Shown here piece by piece: positions 7,096 to 13,263 of a DNA stretch of 64,000 nucleotides. The stretch is from NCBI GenBank assembly GCA_913063375.1, contig CAJXXR010000003.1, forward strand, positions 70,051-134,050, given 5' to 3'. The notes below the pieces were generated by a model. That model did not search any database and was not told the DNA's origin. It saw only the letters and a program-made list of their open reading frames with translations. Each line of letters opens with the position of its first letter. The stretch's first letter is position 1. Both the position numbers and the translations under genes were made by a program. This DNA comes from an uncultured Flavobacteriales bacterium (GTDB taxonomy: Bacteria > Bacteroidota > Bacteroidia > Flavobacteriales > CAJXXR01).

Positions 7096-8943
7096 ATGCA
7101 ACCAAAATTAATTAAAATGTCAGAAAAATTAAGAAAGCTTAAAATTAAGAAAGCTGCTCGCGACGAGCGAATGGGTAATTTCAGAAATGAATTGTTTAAA
7201 GTCTTTAGTGATCATATGTTTAATGAAGATCGCCAAAGGCCATCAAAGGCTAAAGGGGTTAATAAAAAAGCTTCAGGCAAGCAATCTGATTTGAATATTG
7301 GTATTGTTGGTGGTGGAATGGCTGGAATGTATGCTTCCTTATTACTTTCTGAATTGGGCATTGGAAGCCACATATTTGAGGCTTCTGAAGGAAGGCTTGG
7401 TGGTCGTGTTTTTACAAAATATTTTAATGATAATTTGCCGCACCAATATGCAGAATTGGGAGCCATGCGATTCCCTCACAATGAACTGCAAAGTCGTTTG
7501 TTCAGTTTCTGGGACTATCTAAACAAAACAGCACCCAAAACGGAAGGAGCGAGGGAAATAGATAAGATTCCATATATCTTATATGATAAGAGTACCGATA
7601 TGGGAGAAGGGAATTTACTTTGTTTTAACGAGATGAAGCCGGTTACGCGGAATGAGGCGCTGGCAGATAATTCACTATTGGGATTCGATACTTTCTTTGA
7701 AGGACCAGAATATGATTATTTCAAAGATGAAAATGGGGAATTGAAGTCGGCAAGTACCTTGTTGGATAATGTAATAGACCCTTTTTTAGATATTCTTGAG
7801 GAAGATAGTATCTATAAGGCTTGGGAAGAAATATTAAAATACAATGCTTTTTCCGCTCGTGGTTATCTACAACAATTTGGAGATGGAAAACGTCCTTACC
7901 CAATTGCGATTGTAGACTATATGGAAACGGTACTTACCTATACAGGAGTATATGATTTATCCTTCATTGAATTGATTTTGGACAGTTATAGTTTCGATTC
8001 TACAGAAGAATGGTCAGCTATGAATGGGGGAACCTCCCGAGTAACGGAAGAGATGTATAACCGAATTCCAGCCAACCAATTTCAAACTAGTTCAAAAGTG
8101 GTGAAATTAACAGAGGAAGATGGAAAAGCGACTGTTCATTATGAAAATCCAAAATTTCAGACTGAAGAAAAGAAAACCTTCGATCGTGTAATTGTTACGC
8201 TTCCTTTTGCCATGTTGCGCTTTGTTGATACACCATCGGACTGGAGTCCTGAAAAGTATCAAGCTATTCGTAGTCTTAAAATGACGAATGCCGTAAAGGT
8301 GGCTTTAGGCTTTAAAAGCCGTTTCTGGGAAAAAGATGGAAAGTATAGTAAGGGAATGAAAGGTGGGCAAAGCAATACCGATTTACCATCTAGAAGTATC
8401 GTTTATCCATCATTTGGATTAGATCAACCTGGACCAGCCTATTTACTTTCAAGTTATTCTTGGCAGGATGATGCAGACAAGTTCACCCATCTAACAAAGG
8501 AGGAAGCATTTGAAGCTACCCTAAACGATGTCGTAAAAATACATGGTGAAATAGCTCGTAAAGAATATTTAGGAAGTGCAGACTCCATTGTTTGGAACAG
8601 AGACCGATTAGCAGGTGGAGGTTTTGAATTCTTTGCAGCTGGTCAATTTGGTCAAATGTTTTTGGATGCCCGTCAACCTGAAGGTGCATTTAACTTTGCT
8701 GGTGAGCATCTTGATATGGTGCATTACTGGATTGCAGGTTCTTATAACTCTGCCTTTAGAACAGTTTGGGAAATCCTTATACAGGAAGGAATAGAGACCG
8801 ATGAGAATTTGAAAATCCTATTCAATTCACTGGGTGGAGGGAAAATACTTCCAACTATGATACCTCAATTCAGTACGCATACTATGGCTTCAATAGAGGA
8901 AATGATGCACGAGGTGGAACCAGTTATTTTCTACAATAACTAA
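7096..8943 (+). CDS. FAD-dependent amine oxidase family protein (L-amino-acid oxidase / Trp 2-monooxygenase-like)
   Basis: The dinucleotide-binding motif is IGIVGGGMAGMYASLLL...EASEGRLGGRV. The C-terminal FAD motif FAGEHLD...WIAGSYNSA is also present. There is no signal peptide. Alternative starts are possible (M8, M26). Confidence 0.8.
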   Translation: MQPKLIKMSEKLRKLKIKKAARDERMGNFRNELFKVFSDHMFNEDRQRPSKAKGVNKKASGKQSDLNIGIVGGGMAGMYASLLLSELGIGSHIFEASEGRLGGRVFTKYFNDNLPHQYAELGAMRFPHNELQSRLFSFWDYLNKTAPKTEGAREIDKIPYILYDKSTDMGEGNLLCFNEMKPVTRNEALADNSLLGFDTFFEGPEYDYFKDENGELKSASTLLDNVIDPFLDILEEDSIYKAWEEILKYNAFSARGYLQQFGDGKRPYPIAIVDYMETVLTYTGVYDLSFIELILDSYSFDSTEEWSAMNGGTSRVTEEMYNRIPANQFQTSSKVVKLTEEDGKATVHYENPKFQTEEKKTFDRVIVTLPFAMLRFVDTPSDWSPEKYQAIRSLKMTNAVKVALGFKSRFWEKDGKYSKGMKGGQSNTDLPSRSIVYPSFGLDQPGPAYLLSSYSWQDDADKFTHLTKEEAFEATLNDVVKIHGEIARKEYLGSADSIVWNRDRLAGGGFEFFAAGQFGQMFLDARQPEGAFNFAGEHLDMVHYWIAGSYNSAFRTVWEILIQEGIETDENLKILFNSLGGGKILPTMIPQFSTHTMASIEEMMHEVEPVIFYNN

Positions 8944-9016
8944 TCATTAATTGGCTCAAGGGCTAATGAAGATATGCTTATAAAATGAACGATCACTAAT
9001 TTAAAATCTTAAAAAA

Positions 9017-11152: not shown

Positions 11153-11175
11153 ATTAAAATTCAAAAATATATAAA

Positions 11176-13263
11176 ATGTCTAGAAGTAATCTAATGCATG
11201 CTACGGCGCATAAAAAGGAATATTATTCGGCTAAGGAATTGGTAGACAATATAGAAATCAACCAATTGGGGAATAAGGTCGAGGTGGAAATAGATGATAG
11301 TTTGGTGGCTTCAAAAGAAGTTGTAGACAGAGCCACTTCAGTAGATGTGGAAACGGAAACCATCACCACCTATCTAAACAAACGTTTGGCAGAAATTGGC
11401 GTAAAACGCGTAATGGCCATTCCTGGTGATTATATTGCCGAATGGGTAGAGAGTTTGGATATTCCAGAAGCCAGTGCAGGTTTAATCCGTGTACATCCCA
11501 ACAACGAAATGTGTGCTACCTATGCGGCCGATGGTTATGGTAGAGCGGCCAATGGAAAAACAGTAGGATGTGTGGCATTTACCTATGGGGTAGGTGCCCT
11601 AAATGCGGTGCAAGCAGTAGCAGGTGCGCATGTAGAACATGTACCATTGGTAGCGATTAACGGGAGCCCATCTCCGGCACAGTTCAACTCACATAGAGAT
11701 CAAGGGGTTTTGTGGCACCATATGTTTAATGGTACAAAAACGGATCTTAAAATTTTCTCGGAAATTACTGAAATGGCCGTGCGAATTGACAATCCTGCCT
11801 ATGCCCCCGATTTGATTGATGCGGCATTGACTGCCTGTATTACCAACAGTCTGCCCGTTTATATAGAAATAGCCAATACTTTGGGGGATTACCCATGTCA
11901 AAGTGTGGCTACTAGGAAAAGGATTAAAAAATCTCCTGTTGCACAGTCTAAATCAGATTTAGACATTGCTGCTGAATATATTTATGATATTCTAAAGACA
12001 TCCAAGAAATTGGTAATGGTAGGAGGGGTTGAAATCGCTCGTAGCAATATACAGGATAAGTTCAAACGCTTATTACAGCTCTTGGAGGCACCTTACCTAA
12101 GTACCTTGTTGGGGAAAGGGTTATTGAGTGAATTTGATAAAGATATTTATTTTTCTGGGGTCTACAATGGTAGAAACTCACAGCCCAATGTACAGGAATT
12201 ATTTAGTATCAAAGATGGTATAGTTCCTACCGTGGTTTATTTGGGTGTATTGGAAACAGATTTCAATTTCTCCGGGGTGACTTCTACAGATTATGATCCA
12301 GATCCAGGGATCACGCTTCCCTTGACTGGGCAAATAGAAGCACGTAATGGAGCTGTTCTGATCAACGATAGAGCTTCCAAAGAGATAGACAGTGATGTGT
12401 ATTGGGGGAATGTAGATTTGGAACCCCTTATTGACACACTGATTAAATTGATGCTGGAACGTGGGGCTTTACCAAACGCACCCTTCCCGGGATTGCAAAC
12501 AGGTACGCCTTGGGACATTCCAATGCCATCCGCCTATGATGCGAAAAAACAGGTGACTTGGGATAGTTTTAAATCCCTGCTACAGCACGAATACATCTCC
12601 ACTTTTGAGCAAGAACAGACACCAGTCGTTTTAGCAGATACCGGATTGACCTTTTATTCTTTGAACAATCTGAAAGTTGGTCAAAACGGATATATCGCCC
12701 AATTGGCTTGGGGTGCTATTGGTTATTCACCAGCATCCAGTTATGGGGTGAAAATGGCCTTGGAAGATACAGGTAACAACAAACAGGTAATTAGTATTTC
12801 TGGAGATGGTGCCATTTCCGAAAGTATCAATTGCTTGGGGACTATCGCTTCATTAGGACAAGACAATGTGATATTCGCCATGGCCAATGGGGTATTTGCC
12901 ATTGAGCAATTTTTGGTGAATGTATGTGCCTTTGAGTATAAACCAGATGCTCCAAAGTTTGTTCCTTTAACACAGGTTCCTCAAACAGCACTTTGGGATT
13001 GGATCAAGCTTGCGGAAGGATTCGGAGGAGTTGGTTATGATGTCAGCACCAACGAAGAATTGAGAGAGGTCTTGAAAAAGATAAAAAATGCACCTCGCCC
13101 GGCAACTCCTACGGGACCTTGTGTAGAAGGATCATCGGATGGATGTTGTGAATTTGAACCACATGAAGAGGAGGTAAGACGATCTACCTTTACACTAGTT
13201 GCTGTTCGTAATGTCTGTAAAGATTTACCTAGCAATACTAAGTGGAAAATGAGGGGTTGTTAG
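11176..13263 (+). CDS. thiamine-diphosphate-dependent 2-keto-acid decarboxylase (indolepyruvate/pyruvate decarboxylase family)
   Basis: It has the catalytic-Glu block NEMCATYAADGYGR and the ThDP/Mg motif GDGA-x24-AN-GVFAIEQ, with D-to-N spacing as in PDC. The C-terminus is PDC-like (FTLVAVRNVCKDLPSNTKW). It also has an N-terminal extension of about 60 aa and a Cys/acidic insert. Confidence 0.8.
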   Translation: MSRSNLMHATAHKKEYYSAKELVDNIEINQLGNKVEVEIDDSLVASKEVVDRATSVDVETETITTYLNKRLAEIGVKRVMAIPGDYIAEWVESLDIPEASAGLIRVHPNNEMCATYAADGYGRAANGKTVGCVAFTYGVGALNAVQAVAGAHVEHVPLVAINGSPSPAQFNSHRDQGVLWHHMFNGTKTDLKIFSEITEMAVRIDNPAYAPDLIDAALTACITNSLPVYIEIANTLGDYPCQSVATRKRIKKSPVAQSKSDLDIAAEYIYDILKTSKKLVMVGGVEIARSNIQDKFKRLLQLLEAPYLSTLLGKGLLSEFDKDIYFSGVYNGRNSQPNVQELFSIKDGIVPTVVYLGVLETDFNFSGVTSTDYDPDPGITLPLTGQIEARNGAVLINDRASKEIDSDVYWGNVDLEPLIDTLIKLMLERGALPNAPFPGLQTGTPWDIPMPSAYDAKKQVTWDSFKSLLQHEYISTFEQEQTPVVLADTGLTFYSLNNLKVGQNGYIAQLAWGAIGYSPASSYGVKMALEDTGNNKQVISISGDGAISESINCLGTIASLGQDNVIFAMANGVFAIEQFLVNVCAFEYKPDAPKFVPLTQVPQTALWDWIKLAEGFGGVGYDVSTNEELREVLKKIKNAPRPATPTGPCVEGSSDGCCEFEPHEEEVRRSTFTLVAVRNVCKDLPSNTKWKMRGC

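What the first reader, a model, noticed from the sequence alone, without database searches (positions are those of the whole stretch)
7096..13263. Same-strand trio: FAD amino-acid oxidase, lipoxygenase-like protein, ThDP 2-keto-acid decarboxylase
Seen in the sequence: three large co-oriented genes are separated by 73 and 161 nt. They are visibly richer in G+C than the flanking DNA, follow a 1.1-kb gene desert, and are followed by an insertion hotspot. Established knowledge: L-amino-acid oxidases make a 2-oxo acid plus NH3 and H2O2. IPDC/PDC-family enzymes decarboxylate 2-oxo acids to aldehydes. Lipoxygenases peroxidise polyunsaturated lipids and are rare in bacteria. Inference: oxidase plus decarboxylase would give an aminotransferase-independent, two-step route from amino acid to aldehyde, for example Trp to indole-3-pyruvate to indole-3-acetaldehyde, an auxin precursor. 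Adding an oxylipin-forming enzyme suggests host or algal signal mimicry, or a reactive H2O2/aldehyde/lipid-peroxide chemical weapon. I do not know of a described operon that couples these three families.
Basis: partly seen in the sequence, partly recalled or inferred. Interest (0 to 1): 0.72.

Follow-up and report, generated by a model that had tools for sequence, protein, structure and literature searches.

The report
Conserved oxidase–lipoxygenase–decarboxylase gene cassette
Three adjacent genes (an L-amino-acid oxidase, an unusual lipoxygenase-fold iron enzyme and a keto-acid decarboxylase) form a conserved unit that has spread horizontally among unrelated bacteria, which points to an undescribed pathway where a lipoxygenase-type enzyme probably acts on an amino-acid-derived compound rather than on a lipid.

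Summary
There are three co-oriented ORFs (7096-8943, 9017-11014, 11176-13263) with 73- and 161-nt spacers. Their G+C is 0.40 against 0.33 for the rest of the window. A 1.1-kb non-coding stretch lies upstream, and repeat-flanked insertions lie downstream.

The family calls also hold. The first gene is an FAD L-amino-acid oxidase with the carboxylate-binding Arg. The second has the lipoxygenase fold with all five iron ligands. The third is a PDC/IPDC-type ThDP decarboxylase with every catalytic residue.

The trio is not a chance neighbourhood. The lipoxygenase belongs to a small, sharply separated clade. In 17 non-redundant loci of this clade, from Bacteroidota, Gamma- and Betaproteobacteria and Myxococcota, 14 carry the orthologous decarboxylase, 12 carry a flavin amine oxidase and 11 carry both. 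None of 37 ordinary lipoxygenase loci carries either.

Gene order varies between loci. The oxidase or decarboxylase is sometimes replaced by a non-orthologous member of the same superfamily, or by an aminotransferase plus a serine-dehydratase-like enzyme. RidA-lipoxygenase and LAAO-lipoxygenase fusion proteins exist. None of the three proteins has a signal peptide.

My best reading is amino acid to 2-oxo acid to aldehyde, with the lipoxygenase-fold enzyme oxygenating an intermediate of that route. The substrate and product are unknown. I found no description of this cassette in the literature.

The parts
5999..7095 (.). AT-rich non-coding upstream region, the probable promoter region of the cassette. 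A Bacteroidetes-type -7 box (TAnnTTTG) lies at 6993-7000.
   Evidence: G+C is about 0.26. There is no ORF longer than 63 aa and no Rfam match. TAnnTTTG occurs at 6199, 6338 and 6993 but in none of the internal spacers. The consensus itself comes from my own knowledge.
7096..8943 (+). FAD-dependent L-amino-acid oxidase (615 aa), related to fungal L-lysine alpha-oxidase and LAAO4. It has an N-terminal extension of about 60 aa and no signal peptide.
   Evidence: Pfam Amino_oxidase E=1.3e-45. Best PDB matches are L-lysine alpha-oxidase 7d4c at 7e-48, then LAAOs. The motif GAMRFP keeps the carboxylate-binding Arg68 of LysOX, while LysOX D315 is Thr here. Its clade has about 50 clusters at 49-71% identity, then a gap down to 30-35%.
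9017..11014 (+). Lipoxygenase-fold non-heme iron enzyme (665 aa) of a small divergent clade. It has no PLAT domain and no signal peptide.
   Evidence: Pfam Lipoxygenase E=4.7e-27. The AF2 model has pLDDT 89 and pTM 0.91. Foldseek top hits are 5-, 12- and 15-LOX and 8R-LOX at TM 0.60-0.68. H304, H309, H495 and N499 are invariant, and the C terminus is -IQI. The clade is separated from all other LOX by a score drop from at least 378 bits to at most 171 bits (short fragments of clade proteins) and about 138 bits or less for other lipoxygenases.
11100..11159 (+). Stable hairpin followed by U7 in the spacer between the LOX and decarboxylase genes. It could be an internal terminator, an attenuator or an RNA-stabilising element.
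   Evidence: dG is -24.4 kcal/mol, z is -5.1, and 0 of 200 shuffles fold as well. The proteobacterial orthologous cassettes have only 10-31 nt at this junction (coordinates).
11176..13263 (+). PDC/IPDC-type thiamine-diphosphate 2-oxo-acid decarboxylase (695 aa). It has an N-terminal extension, an internal insertion and a Cys-rich C-terminal tail.
   Evidence: Pfam TPP_enzyme_N, _M and _C. The best PDB match is yeast PDC at 1.3e-40. The equivalents of yeast D28, E51, H114-H115, E477 and GDG...N are invariant in 21 clade members.
13277..13305 (+). Intrinsic terminator that closes the cassette.
   Evidence: dG is -17.9 kcal/mol, z is -6.9, and a U run follows.
13107..13270 (+). 3' end of the decarboxylase gene. 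It is repeated at 14774-14937, so this pair of direct repeats flanks a 1.67-kb insertion that carries ORF 13616-14734.
   Evidence: the repeat finder family D1, 96% identity over 164 nt. Alignment.

Best explanation
The three genes form one horizontally mobile, cytoplasmic enzyme cassette that works on an amino-acid carbon skeleton. Step 1 (well supported by sequence): the FAD L-amino-acid oxidase converts an L-amino acid and O2 into the 2-imino acid, which hydrolyses to the 2-oxo acid plus NH3, with H2O2 as by-product. Step 2 (well supported by sequence): the PDC-type ThDP enzyme decarboxylates that 2-oxo acid to the aldehyde. Step 3 (inferred from genomic context only): the divergent lipoxygenase-fold iron enzyme belongs to the same pathway. 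It uses the lipoxygenase mechanism (Fe(III)-OH hydrogen abstraction, then O2 addition) on an activated methylene of the amino-acid-derived 2-oxo acid, its enol, or the aldehyde. The substrate is probably aromatic or otherwise bulky, and it is not a membrane polyunsaturated fatty acid. The product would be an oxygenated aldehyde or acid of unknown identity. The oxidase is the replaceable 2-oxo-acid supplier. The lipoxygenase and decarboxylase are the more constant core.
For: Residues:
- LAAO keeps the carboxylate-binding Arg and the FAD motif.
- The decarboxylase keeps all PDC catalytic residues across 21 clade members.
- The LOX keeps 3 His, Asn and the C-terminal Ile across 26 members.

Conserved linkage:
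- The order LAAO-LOX-ThDP is the same in Photobacterium, Vibrio quintilis, Burkholderia, Ancylomarina, Ca. Methylobacter oryzae and two metagenome contigs. It is rearranged in two more loci.
- Of 17 non-redundant clade loci, 14 have the orthologous ThDP gene and 12 have a flavin amine oxidase. None of 37 ordinary LOX loci has either (Fisher p = 2e-10 and 2e-8).
- Flanking genes differ in every genome.
- Pairwise identity matrices of the three proteins correlate (r = 0.70-0.76, Mantel p <= 0.001) and do not follow taxonomy.

Linkage follows chemistry, not ancestry:
- One locus type has a VioA-like oxidase, a benzoylformate-decarboxylase-like ThDP enzyme and a RidA-LOX fusion. That oxidase and ThDP enzyme are not orthologous to the window's (39 and 27 bits).
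- The Microvirgula-type loci replace the oxidase with an aminotransferase and an Fe-S serine-dehydratase-like enzyme, which are other makers of 2-oxo acids.

Fusions:
- The RidA-LOX fusion has a RidA domain that keeps its catalytic Arg. RidA hydrolyses the imines that amino-acid oxidases release.
- A 1327-aa LAAO-LOX fusion on Burkholderia plasmids has a LOX domain that shares the clade motifs GRIGxYQL, VQHTxVND and C-terminal VMNxIQ(I/T).

Location and substrate hints:
- There is no signal peptide in any of the 27 proteins examined. From general knowledge, many hosts (Burkholderia, Janthinobacterium, Microvirgula, Methylobacter) do not make 1,4-pentadiene fatty acids.
- Hints of an aromatic substrate come from neighbours: an intradiol dioxygenase, LigB, an arylamine N-acetyltransferase, a tyrosinase, and BFD-like and VioA-like partners.
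Against: There are no biochemical data, and neither the substrate nor the product is known. Three of the four alignable residues of the hydrophobic 'constellation' that holds the pentadiene in 5-LOX are kept (L305, I348, L361; only L373 becomes Ser). A lipid-like substrate is therefore not excluded. One clade member (Myxococcota, L058) sits beside a P450-amine oxidase-fatty-acyl-AMP ligase fusion, which links it to fatty acids. One member (Methylospira, L005) has no oxidase and only an unrelated ThDP gene 5 kb away. In the window, a terminator-like hairpin lies between the LOX and decarboxylase genes. Oxidase-decarboxylase pairs also exist without any LOX, so the LOX is an add-on to that module and not essential to it.
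Confidence: 0.45

Rival explanations
1. One reading: the lipoxygenase is an ordinary polyunsaturated-fatty-acid dioxygenase that makes oxylipins. It is coupled only loosely to an amino-acid-to-aldehyde route (for example auxin-type). Together they produce signals or reactive H2O2, aldehyde and lipid-peroxide chemistry aimed at hosts, algae or competitors.
For: The LOX fold and all iron ligands are present. Most of the pentadiene-holding hydrophobic residues are kept. Several hosts are marine or host-associated. One clade member neighbours a fatty-acyl-AMP ligase.
Against: No protein has a signal peptide, so the enzymes do not reach host lipids, and H2O2 would be made inside the cell. None of 37 ordinary LOX loci has such neighbours. 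The RidA-LOX and LAAO-LOX fusions are hard to explain if the LOX substrate has nothing to do with the oxidase product. The decarboxylase scores far below the IPDC equivalog cut-offs. From general knowledge, many hosts lack polyunsaturated fatty acids.
Confidence: 0.2
2. H2O2-coupling model: the flavin oxidase is there mainly to generate H2O2 in situ. The lipoxygenase-fold enzyme uses that peroxide as a peroxidase- or peroxygenase-like catalyst (or needs it to reach the active Fe(III) state) to oxidise the aldehyde or another co-substrate.
For: The sister cluster in Pelagimonas has three flavin oxidases and the orthologous decarboxylase. Where the LOX would be, it has an FMP-type peroxidase and a DyP peroxidase. 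In the Myxococcota locus an amine-oxidase domain is fused to a P450. A cytoplasmic H2O2 producer would benefit from a dedicated consumer.
Against: From general knowledge, lipoxygenases handle H2O2 poorly. The LAAO-less Microvirgula-type loci keep the LOX and decarboxylase with no H2O2 source. The fused RidA points to the imine or oxo-acid product of the oxidase, not to its H2O2.
Confidence: 0.12
3. Catabolic nitrogen-harvesting island: an oxidative version of the Ehrlich pathway. Peptides and amino acids are stripped of NH3 and the carbon skeleton is discarded as an aldehyde. The lipoxygenase is a peripheral detoxifying or accessory enzyme.
For: The extended clusters hold M61 aminopeptidase, asparaginase, further amino-acid oxidases, a sarcosine-oxidase-like DAO, a serine-dehydratase-like enzyme, an aminotransferase and, nearby, glutaminase. 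All of these release or move amino nitrogen. Oxidase-decarboxylase pairs occur alone, even as cargo of a Tn7-like element.
Against: This model does not explain why a special LOX clade is bound to these genes or why the LOX is fused to RidA or an LAAO. No transporter or aldehyde dehydrogenase is conserved in the cassette. The window carries only the three-gene core.
Confidence: 0.15
4. Chance juxtaposition: three unrelated genes that happen to lie together in this genome.
For: In the window a terminator-like hairpin separates genes 2 and 3.
Against: The co-occurrence is conserved across at least four phyla or classes, with different flanks and correlated divergence, and there are domain fusions.
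Confidence: 0.02

Closest known systems
Ehrlich pathway and indole-3-pyruvate auxin pathway (aminotransferase, then PDC/IPDC/PPDC-type ThDP decarboxylase, then alcohol or aldehyde dehydrogenase)
   Same: Both run from amino acid to 2-oxo acid to aldehyde through a PDC-family decarboxylase with the same catalytic residues: the Glu that activates ThDP, the HH motif, and the Asp/Glu pair.
   Different: Here the first step is an O2-dependent flavin oxidase, not a transaminase. The cassette has no dehydrogenase and has a lipoxygenase-fold enzyme in its place. The decarboxylase is a separate clade of about 640-720 aa with extra segments, and it scores far below the IPDC/PPDC equivalog cut-offs.
Biosynthetic pairings of an amino-acid oxidase or dehydrogenase with a ThDP enzyme (scytonemin ScyB/ScyA; carbazole NzsD/NzsH; in-vitro LAAO plus NzsH cascades, PMC9822442; VioA/StaO/RebO-type cytoplasmic Trp oxidases)
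   Same: A cytoplasmic enzyme makes an aromatic 2-oxo or 2-imino acid and hands it to a ThDP enzyme. In one locus type the partner oxidase is VioA-like.
   Different: Those ThDP enzymes are ALS-like carboligases that make acyloins. The window's enzyme has the PDC-type decarboxylase signature. None of those pathways contains a lipoxygenase.
Characterised bacterial lipoxygenases (Pseudomonas aeruginosa LoxA, Cyanothece CspLOX2 5med, Burkholderia thailandensis 13-LOX)
   Same: Same catalytic fold, no PLAT domain as in CspLOX2, and the same iron ligands.
   Different: Identity is at most about 30%, and only residues 145-550 align. The N- and C-terminal thirds are unique. Both second-sphere glutamines (5-LOX Q363 and Q557) are Phe and Met here, and L373 is Ser. 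There is no signal peptide. The gene is obligately linked to amino-acid-oxidising genes, which ordinary LOX loci lack.
Natural lipoxygenase fusion proteins (coral allene-oxide-synthase-LOX, P450-LOX)
   Same: They set the precedent that a LOX domain is fused to the enzyme working next to it in a pathway. P450-LOX and ACBP-LOX fusions turned up here as well.
   Different: In those fusions the partner acts on the lipid hydroperoxide. Here the partners are an imine deaminase (RidA) and an L-amino-acid oxidase, which are enzymes of amino-acid chemistry.

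Membership tests
Lipoxygenase (PF00305) | Lipoxygenase catalytic-domain fold | tested here: met
   Pfam E=4.7e-27. The AF2 model has pLDDT 89. All 50 listed Foldseek hits are lipoxygenases, at TM 0.53-0.68.
Lipoxygenase (PF00305) | Five iron ligands: HxxxxH, HxxxN/H, and the C-terminal carboxylate (usually Ile) | tested here: met
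   H304, H309, H495 and N499 are invariant in 26 clade members. The C terminus is ...IQI (I663 and Q664 are listed as invariant and the consensus ends -IQI). They align to H367, H372, H550 and N554 of 5-LOX. That the C-terminal carboxylate actually binds the iron is not shown.
Lipoxygenase (PF00305) | Second-sphere glutamines and the Leu/Ile constellation around the pentadiene site | tested here: inconclusive
   L368, I406 and L414 of 5-LOX are kept as L305, I348 and L361. L373 is Ser, Q363 is Phe and Q557 is Met. L607 could not be aligned.
Lipoxygenase (PF00305) | Dioxygenation of a 1,4-cis,cis-pentadiene fatty acid to a hydroperoxide | not testable with these tools
   This needs an enzyme assay. 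Genomic context argues for a different substrate.
Lipoxygenase (PF00305) | N-terminal PLAT/C2-like beta-barrel (eukaryotic LOX; not required in bacteria) | tested here: not met
   There is no PF01477 hit. In the model, residues 1-145 are mostly helical.
L-amino-acid oxidase (flavin amine oxidase superfamily, PF01593) | FAD Rossmann motif and amine-oxidase fold | tested here: met
   GIVGGGMAG is present. Pfam E=1.3e-45 over the whole model.
L-amino-acid oxidase (flavin amine oxidase superfamily, PF01593) | Arg that binds the substrate alpha-carboxylate (separates LAAO from monoamine oxidases) | tested here: met
   GAMRFP aligns with GAMRYP (Arg68) of T. viride L-lysine oxidase.
L-lysine alpha-oxidase (closest solved structure) | Asp212 and Asp315, which recognise the epsilon-amino group | tested here: not met
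   D212 is kept, but D315 aligns with Thr (the residue roles come from my own knowledge of the LysOX structure papers). This enzyme should not be filed as a lysine oxidase.
PDC/IPDC-type ThDP 2-oxo-acid decarboxylase | Three-domain PYR-R-PP architecture with the GDG-X-N ThDP/Mg motif | tested here: met
   TPP_enzyme_N, _M and _C all hit. G537, D538 and N565 are invariant.
PDC/IPDC-type ThDP 2-oxo-acid decarboxylase | Catalytic Glu51, Asp28, His114-His115 and Glu477 (yeast PDC numbering) | tested here: met
   E105, D79, H175-H176 and E571 are invariant in 21 clade members and align to yeast PDC.
Indolepyruvate/phenylpyruvate decarboxylase equivalogs (TIGR03393/TIGR03394) | Score above the curated equivalog cut-off | tested here: not met
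   164 bits against a cut-off of 554.5, and 145 bits against 946. This is a separate clade of the PDC family, and its substrate is unknown.
Indole-3-pyruvate auxin pathway | Trp-specific first enzyme, IPDC, and an aldehyde dehydrogenase or oxidase that yields IAA | tested here: inconclusive
   No aldehyde dehydrogenase lies in or next to the cassette in the window. Specificity for Trp cannot be tested here.

The most novel reading that the evidence does not exclude
The lipoxygenase-fold protein is the founding member of a clade of non-lipid lipoxygenases. It would be an iron dioxygenase that abstracts hydrogen from the doubly activated methylene of an amino-acid-derived 2-oxo acid, enol or aldehyde, handed over by an L-amino-acid oxidase (with RidA) and a ThDP decarboxylase. 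The cassette would then make a so far unknown class of oxygenated amino-acid metabolites, and it has spread by horizontal transfer through at least four bacterial phyla or classes.
Probability: 0.3. Interest if true: 0.85.

Novelty: new variant of a known kind. Interest (0 to 1): 0.68.

Why it matters
Lipoxygenases are regarded as lipid-peroxidising enzymes, and bacterial ones are usually discussed in terms of host lipids. This work finds a sharply separated lipoxygenase clade whose genomic partners are always enzymes of amino-acid oxidation and decarboxylation. Members of the clade occur fused to an imine deaminase, and a sister lipoxygenase is fused to an L-amino-acid oxidase. This gives a concrete, testable lead to new lipoxygenase chemistry and to an undescribed pathway. 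It also provides ready-made reagents: the three genes can be expressed together, and the natural LAAO-lipoxygenase fusion is a single polypeptide that should convert an amino acid directly into the lipoxygenase product. If the lipoxygenase proves to be an ordinary fatty-acid enzyme, the cassette would still be an unusual, widely transferred combination of H2O2, aldehyde and lipid-hydroperoxide formation inside the cell.

Tried and rejected
- **Literature.** Eight full-text searches, plus reading the bacterial-lipoxygenase survey (bioRxiv 10.1101/2022.06.21.497025), found no description of the trio, of a RidA-LOX fusion or of an LAAO-LOX fusion. This covers open-access papers only.
- **Riboswitch or leader RNA** that might name the inducer. 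There is no Rfam match in 5900-15300 at E <= 1.
- **A fourth conserved gene.** ORFs 13616-14734 and 15216-16334 have no Pfam, NCBIfam or PADLOC hits and no homolog in any related locus. They sit in repeat-flanked insertions, so they are not part of the cassette.
- **Lysine oxidase assignment.** Rejected because LysOX D315 is not kept.
- **IPDC/auxin assignment.** Not supported by the equivalog scores.
- **Secreted weapon.** Rejected because no signal peptides were found (a simple hydrophobicity and RR-motif check, not a trained predictor).
- **Genome-collection scan.** I ran it with a single sequence and it returned only 2 loci.
- **Sigma-70 promoter scan.** Uninformative (39 found against 33.5 expected).
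- **Plasmid search.** It did not find the cassette itself on plasmids. It found only the LAAO-LOX fusion.

Full report

Yes. The window has three co-oriented ORFs at 7096-8943 (615 aa), 9017-11014 (665 aa) and 11176-13263 (695 aa), with spacers of 73 and 161 nt. G+C is 0.402 for the trio and 0.329 for the rest of the window. The three genes have 0.383, 0.403 and 0.425, against 0.335 ± 0.028 for 40 other long ORFs. GC3 is 0.308, 0.365 and 0.366 against 0.279 ± 0.042.

The 1.1 kb upstream (5999-7095) is AT-rich (about 0.26 G+C). It has no ORF longer than 63 aa and no Rfam match. On its other side is a FeoA-FeoB fusion gene on the minus strand.

A strong terminator closes the third gene at 13277-13305.

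The 'insertion hotspot' is also real. The last 164 nt of the third gene (13107-13270) recur at 14774-14937 with 96% identity, so the pair brackets a 1.67-kb segment holding ORF 13616-14734. A second repeat pair (15008-15294 and 17124-17294) brackets ORF 15216-16334 (G+C 0.23) and a PhnB/VOC-type gene.

**2. What are the three proteins?**

*Gene 1* is a flavin L-amino-acid oxidase.
- Pfam Amino_oxidase gives E=1.3e-45.
- The best solved relatives are fungal L-lysine alpha-oxidase, a fungal LAAO4 and reconstructed tetrapod LAAOs.
- It keeps the Arg that binds the substrate carboxylate (GAMRFP against GAMRYP). It lacks one of the two Asp that make the fungal enzyme lysine-specific.
- Its clade holds about 50 bacterial clusters at 49-71% identity. 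The next relatives are at 30-35%, and are mostly fungal, amoebal and fish LAAOs plus some Bacillus-group proteins.

*Gene 2* has the lipoxygenase fold.
- Evidence: Pfam E=4.7e-27; an AF2 model with pLDDT 89 and pTM 0.91; Foldseek hits that are all lipoxygenases at TM 0.60-0.68 for the best ones.
- All iron ligands are present: H304, H309, H495 and N499 are invariant in 26 relatives, and the C terminus is -IQI.
- It is nevertheless far from every characterised lipoxygenase. Only residues 145-550 align, at about 30% identity or less.
- Both second-sphere glutamines of canonical enzymes are Phe and Met, and one of the conserved pocket leucines is Ser. Three other pocket residues are kept.
- An exhaustive search of 1.84 billion representatives finds about ten 50%-identity clusters of this clade at 378 bits or more. 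After that come short fragments of clade proteins (up to 171 bits), and then ordinary lipoxygenases at about 138 bits or less. In all, 1572 lipoxygenases match at E <= 0.001.

*Gene 3* is a PDC/IPDC-type ThDP decarboxylase.
- All three ThDP domains are present, and the best solved relative is yeast pyruvate decarboxylase.
- The equivalents of yeast D28, E51, H114-H115, E477 and the GDG...N motif are invariant in 21 clade members.
- It scores far below the NCBIfam equivalog cut-offs for indolepyruvate/phenylpyruvate decarboxylase (164 against 554 bits). It is therefore a distinct clade with unknown substrate.

None of the three proteins has a signal peptide in any of nine loci. All three carry N-terminal extensions of about 20-60 residues with short conserved motifs.

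**3. Is the neighbourhood conserved?**

This is the main result. Starting from relatives of the lipoxygenase, I read their contigs.

The same order, LAAO-LOX-ThDP, with orthologs at 53-76% (LAAO and ThDP) and 38-70% (LOX) pairwise identity, occurs in:
- Photobacterium sp. TY1-4
- Vibrio quintilis
- Burkholderia sp. JSH-S8
- Ancylomarina sp. DW003 (the closest, at about 70%)
- Ca. Methylobacter oryzae
- two metagenome contigs

A Bacteroidetes MAG and another metagenome contig have the same three genes in a different order. The flanking genes differ in every genome.

Names in the homolog tables add Derxia, Janthinobacterium, Roseateles, Ideonella, several Burkholderia cepacia-complex species and Myxococcales. 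In B. pyrrocinia the LAAO and LOX carry consecutive locus tags.

Counts over 17 non-redundant clade loci, including the window:
- 14 have the orthologous decarboxylase
- 12 have a flavin amine oxidase
- 11 have both

In 37 control loci around ordinary lipoxygenases (about 25% identity), none has any amine oxidase or ThDP enzyme within 10 kb. This holds even with sensitive multi-query phmmer (Fisher p = 2e-10 and 2e-8).

The pairwise identity matrices of the three proteins over nine loci correlate (r = 0.70-0.76, Mantel p <= 0.001). They cut across taxonomy, as expected if the three genes travel together.

In low-GC hosts the cassette tends to be GC-richer than its flanks. In the GC-rich Burkholderia and in Vibrio quintilis it is GC-poorer, while in Photobacterium and Ca. 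Methylobacter oryzae it is richer. This pattern fits repeated transfer with incomplete amelioration, or strong protein-level constraint.

**4. The linkage follows chemistry, not ancestry**

- One locus type has an amine oxidase, a ThDP enzyme and a RidA-LOX fusion. The oxidase is VioA-like and the ThDP enzyme is benzoylformate-decarboxylase-like. Neither is orthologous to the window's proteins (39 and 27 bits).
- The fused RidA domain keeps its catalytic Arg. From general knowledge, RidA proteins hydrolyse the imines released by amino-acid oxidases and dehydratases.
- The Microvirgula-type loci lack the oxidase. They carry LOX, ThDP, an M61 aminopeptidase, an Fe-S serine-dehydratase-like enzyme and an aminotransferase, which are other ways of making 2-oxo acids.
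- The extended clusters add a second LAAO, a sarcosine-oxidase-like DAO, asparaginase and the M61 peptidase.
- A Myxococcota member lies beside a P450-amine oxidase-fatty-acyl-AMP ligase fusion.
- Burkholderia plasmids encode a 1327-aa LAAO-LOX fusion. Its LOX domain is 27% identical to the window's and shares its hallmark motifs and C-terminal VMNxIQ(I/T). It lies next to a tyrosinase and near a PLP-dependent decarboxylase.
- The decarboxylase clade is larger than the LOX clade. Members at about 50% identity pair with an unrelated amine oxidase without any LOX. One such pair sits with FMP-type and DyP peroxidases (Pelagimonas), and another is cargo of a Tn7-like element.

**5. Mechanism**

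*Shown by sequence:* an LAAO able to bind an alpha-amino acid, a decarboxylase with a complete PDC active site, and a lipoxygenase-fold protein with a complete iron site.

*Inferred:* the amino acid is oxidised to the 2-imino acid and then the 2-oxo acid, with NH3 and H2O2 released, and the oxo acid is decarboxylated to the aldehyde. I put this two-step part at about 0.8.

The role of the lipoxygenase-fold enzyme rests on context only. It is bound to amino-acid-oxidising partners of several unrelated families, and fused to RidA or to an LAAO. It has no export signal. From general knowledge, it sits in many hosts that make no polyunsaturated fatty acids. I therefore think it most likely oxygenates an intermediate of this route.

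A chemically plausible target is the methylene that lies between a carbonyl and an aryl or vinyl group in an arylpyruvate or arylacetaldehyde. That position is an analogue of a bis-allylic carbon.

Neighbouring genes weakly hint at aromatic substrates: an intradiol dioxygenase, LigB, an arylamine N-acetyltransferase, a tyrosinase, and BFD-like and VioA-like partners.

Whether the LOX acts before or after the decarboxylase is open. The LAAO-LOX fusion and the gene order favour 'before'. The LOX-less oxidase-decarboxylase modules favour 'after, as an add-on'.

My overall confidence in the three-step model is 0.45.

**6. Transcription in the window**

A Bacteroidetes-type -7 box (TAnnTTTG; the consensus is from my own knowledge) lies at 6993, about 100 nt upstream of gene 1. 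None lies in either internal spacer or between gene 3 and the next ORF. The proteobacterial cassettes have only 10-31 nt between the LOX and ThDP genes (coordinates), which fits one operon.

In the window, and in Ancylomarina (a spacer of about 270 nt with a hairpin but no U run), the junction is longer and structured. Whether the hairpin-U7 terminates, attenuates or merely stabilises RNA cannot be decided here.

**7. Comparison with what is known, and novelty**

The route resembles the Ehrlich and indole-3-pyruvate pathways, and the biosynthetic oxidase-ThDP pairs of scytonemin and carbazole pathways. It differs in three ways: an oxidase as first enzyme, a PDC-type decarboxylase of its own clade, and above all the lipoxygenase.

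The enzyme families are all known. What is new is the conserved combination, the dedicated lipoxygenase clade and the RidA-LOX and LAAO-LOX fusions. I could not find any of these described.

I rate it a new variant of a known kind, with interest 0.68. The most novel reading not excluded is a non-lipid lipoxygenase, which I put at about 0.3 probability.

Noticed in passing
window 13107-13270 and 14774-14937 (also 13287-13315 and 14960-14988): The last 164 nt of the decarboxylase gene recur 1667 nt downstream at 96% identity, with a weaker copy of its terminator. The pair brackets ORF 13616-14734 (372 aa, a predicted membrane segment, no family hit). It looks like an insertion that duplicated, or carried a copy of, its target site in the 3' end of the gene.
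   Followed up: partly
window 15008-15294 and 17124-17294: A second pair of direct repeats (91-97% identity, about 2115 nt apart) brackets ORF 15216-16334 (G+C 0.23, GC3 0.16, no Pfam, NCBIfam or PADLOC hit) and a PhnB/VOC-type gene (16519-16947). The repeat is the upstream region of a second PhnB/VOC gene (17322-17870).
   Followed up: partly
L060 4619-8602 (Burkholderia sp. JSH-S8 plasmid CP110394, WGS47897.1; also B. stagnalis plasmid NZ_CP156687): A 1327-aa natural fusion of an L-amino-acid oxidase domain and a lipoxygenase domain, annotated only as 'FAD-dependent oxidoreductase'. It lies next to a tyrosinase-family gene and near a PLP-dependent decarboxylase, an MFS transporter and a Haem_oxygenas_2 protein. 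The same strain also carries the three-gene cassette on a chromosome (L006).
   Followed up: partly
L002 10001-12256, L003, and proteins P0035, P0040, P0041: RidA (imine deaminase)-lipoxygenase fusion proteins of about 750 aa. They are preceded by a VioA-like amine oxidase and a benzoylformate-decarboxylase-like ThDP enzyme, neither orthologous to the window's proteins.
   Followed up: partly
L058 11497-15585 (Myxococcota UBA796 contig): A 1362-aa fusion of cytochrome P450, flavin amine oxidase and fatty-acyl-AMP ligase, followed by a carrier-protein-thioesterase gene. It lies convergent to a clade lipoxygenase that has a LysR regulator upstream.
   Followed up: no
L053 (Pelagimonas varians contig) 115-12525: A sister cluster without a lipoxygenase: M61 peptidase, DAO, amine oxidase, FMP-type peroxidase, amine oxidase, the orthologous ThDP decarboxylase (49% identity), an unknown 410-aa protein and a DyP peroxidase. 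That is three H2O2-forming flavoenzymes next to two peroxidases.
   Followed up: partly
L055 and L056, 1-11985: An amine oxidase-ThDP decarboxylase pair (decarboxylase 52% identical to the window's) sits between TniB/TniQ/integrase genes and an IS110 transposase. It appears to be cargo of a Tn7-like element.
   Followed up: no
window 7096-7290, 9017-9150 and 11176-11360 (N termini of the three proteins): All three proteins carry N-terminal extensions absent from characterised homologs, each with a short motif conserved across nine loci. Examples are R..F/L-F/Y...H-L/M-F/Y in the oxidase and S/N-x-L-L......Y/F-x-R/K-x-F-R in the decarboxylase. The oxidase extension occupies the position of the inhibitory propeptide of the fungal L-lysine oxidase precursor (7d4c). 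Possible roles are latency or docking of the three enzymes.
   Followed up: partly
window 13120-13263: The decarboxylase has a Cys-rich C-terminal tail (PCVEGSSDGCCEFEPHEEE...VCKDL...RGC). The clade consensus does not show it, except for the final TFTLVAVR...DLPSNT.WK motif.
   Followed up: no
L008 5279-6568 (Ancylomarina sp. DW003): A cysteate synthase gene (TIGR03844, 477 bits) lies about 1.5 kb upstream of the Ancylomarina cassette. An aminotransferase follows the decarboxylase and a glutaminase lies beyond it. None of these flanks is shared with the window.
   Followed up: no
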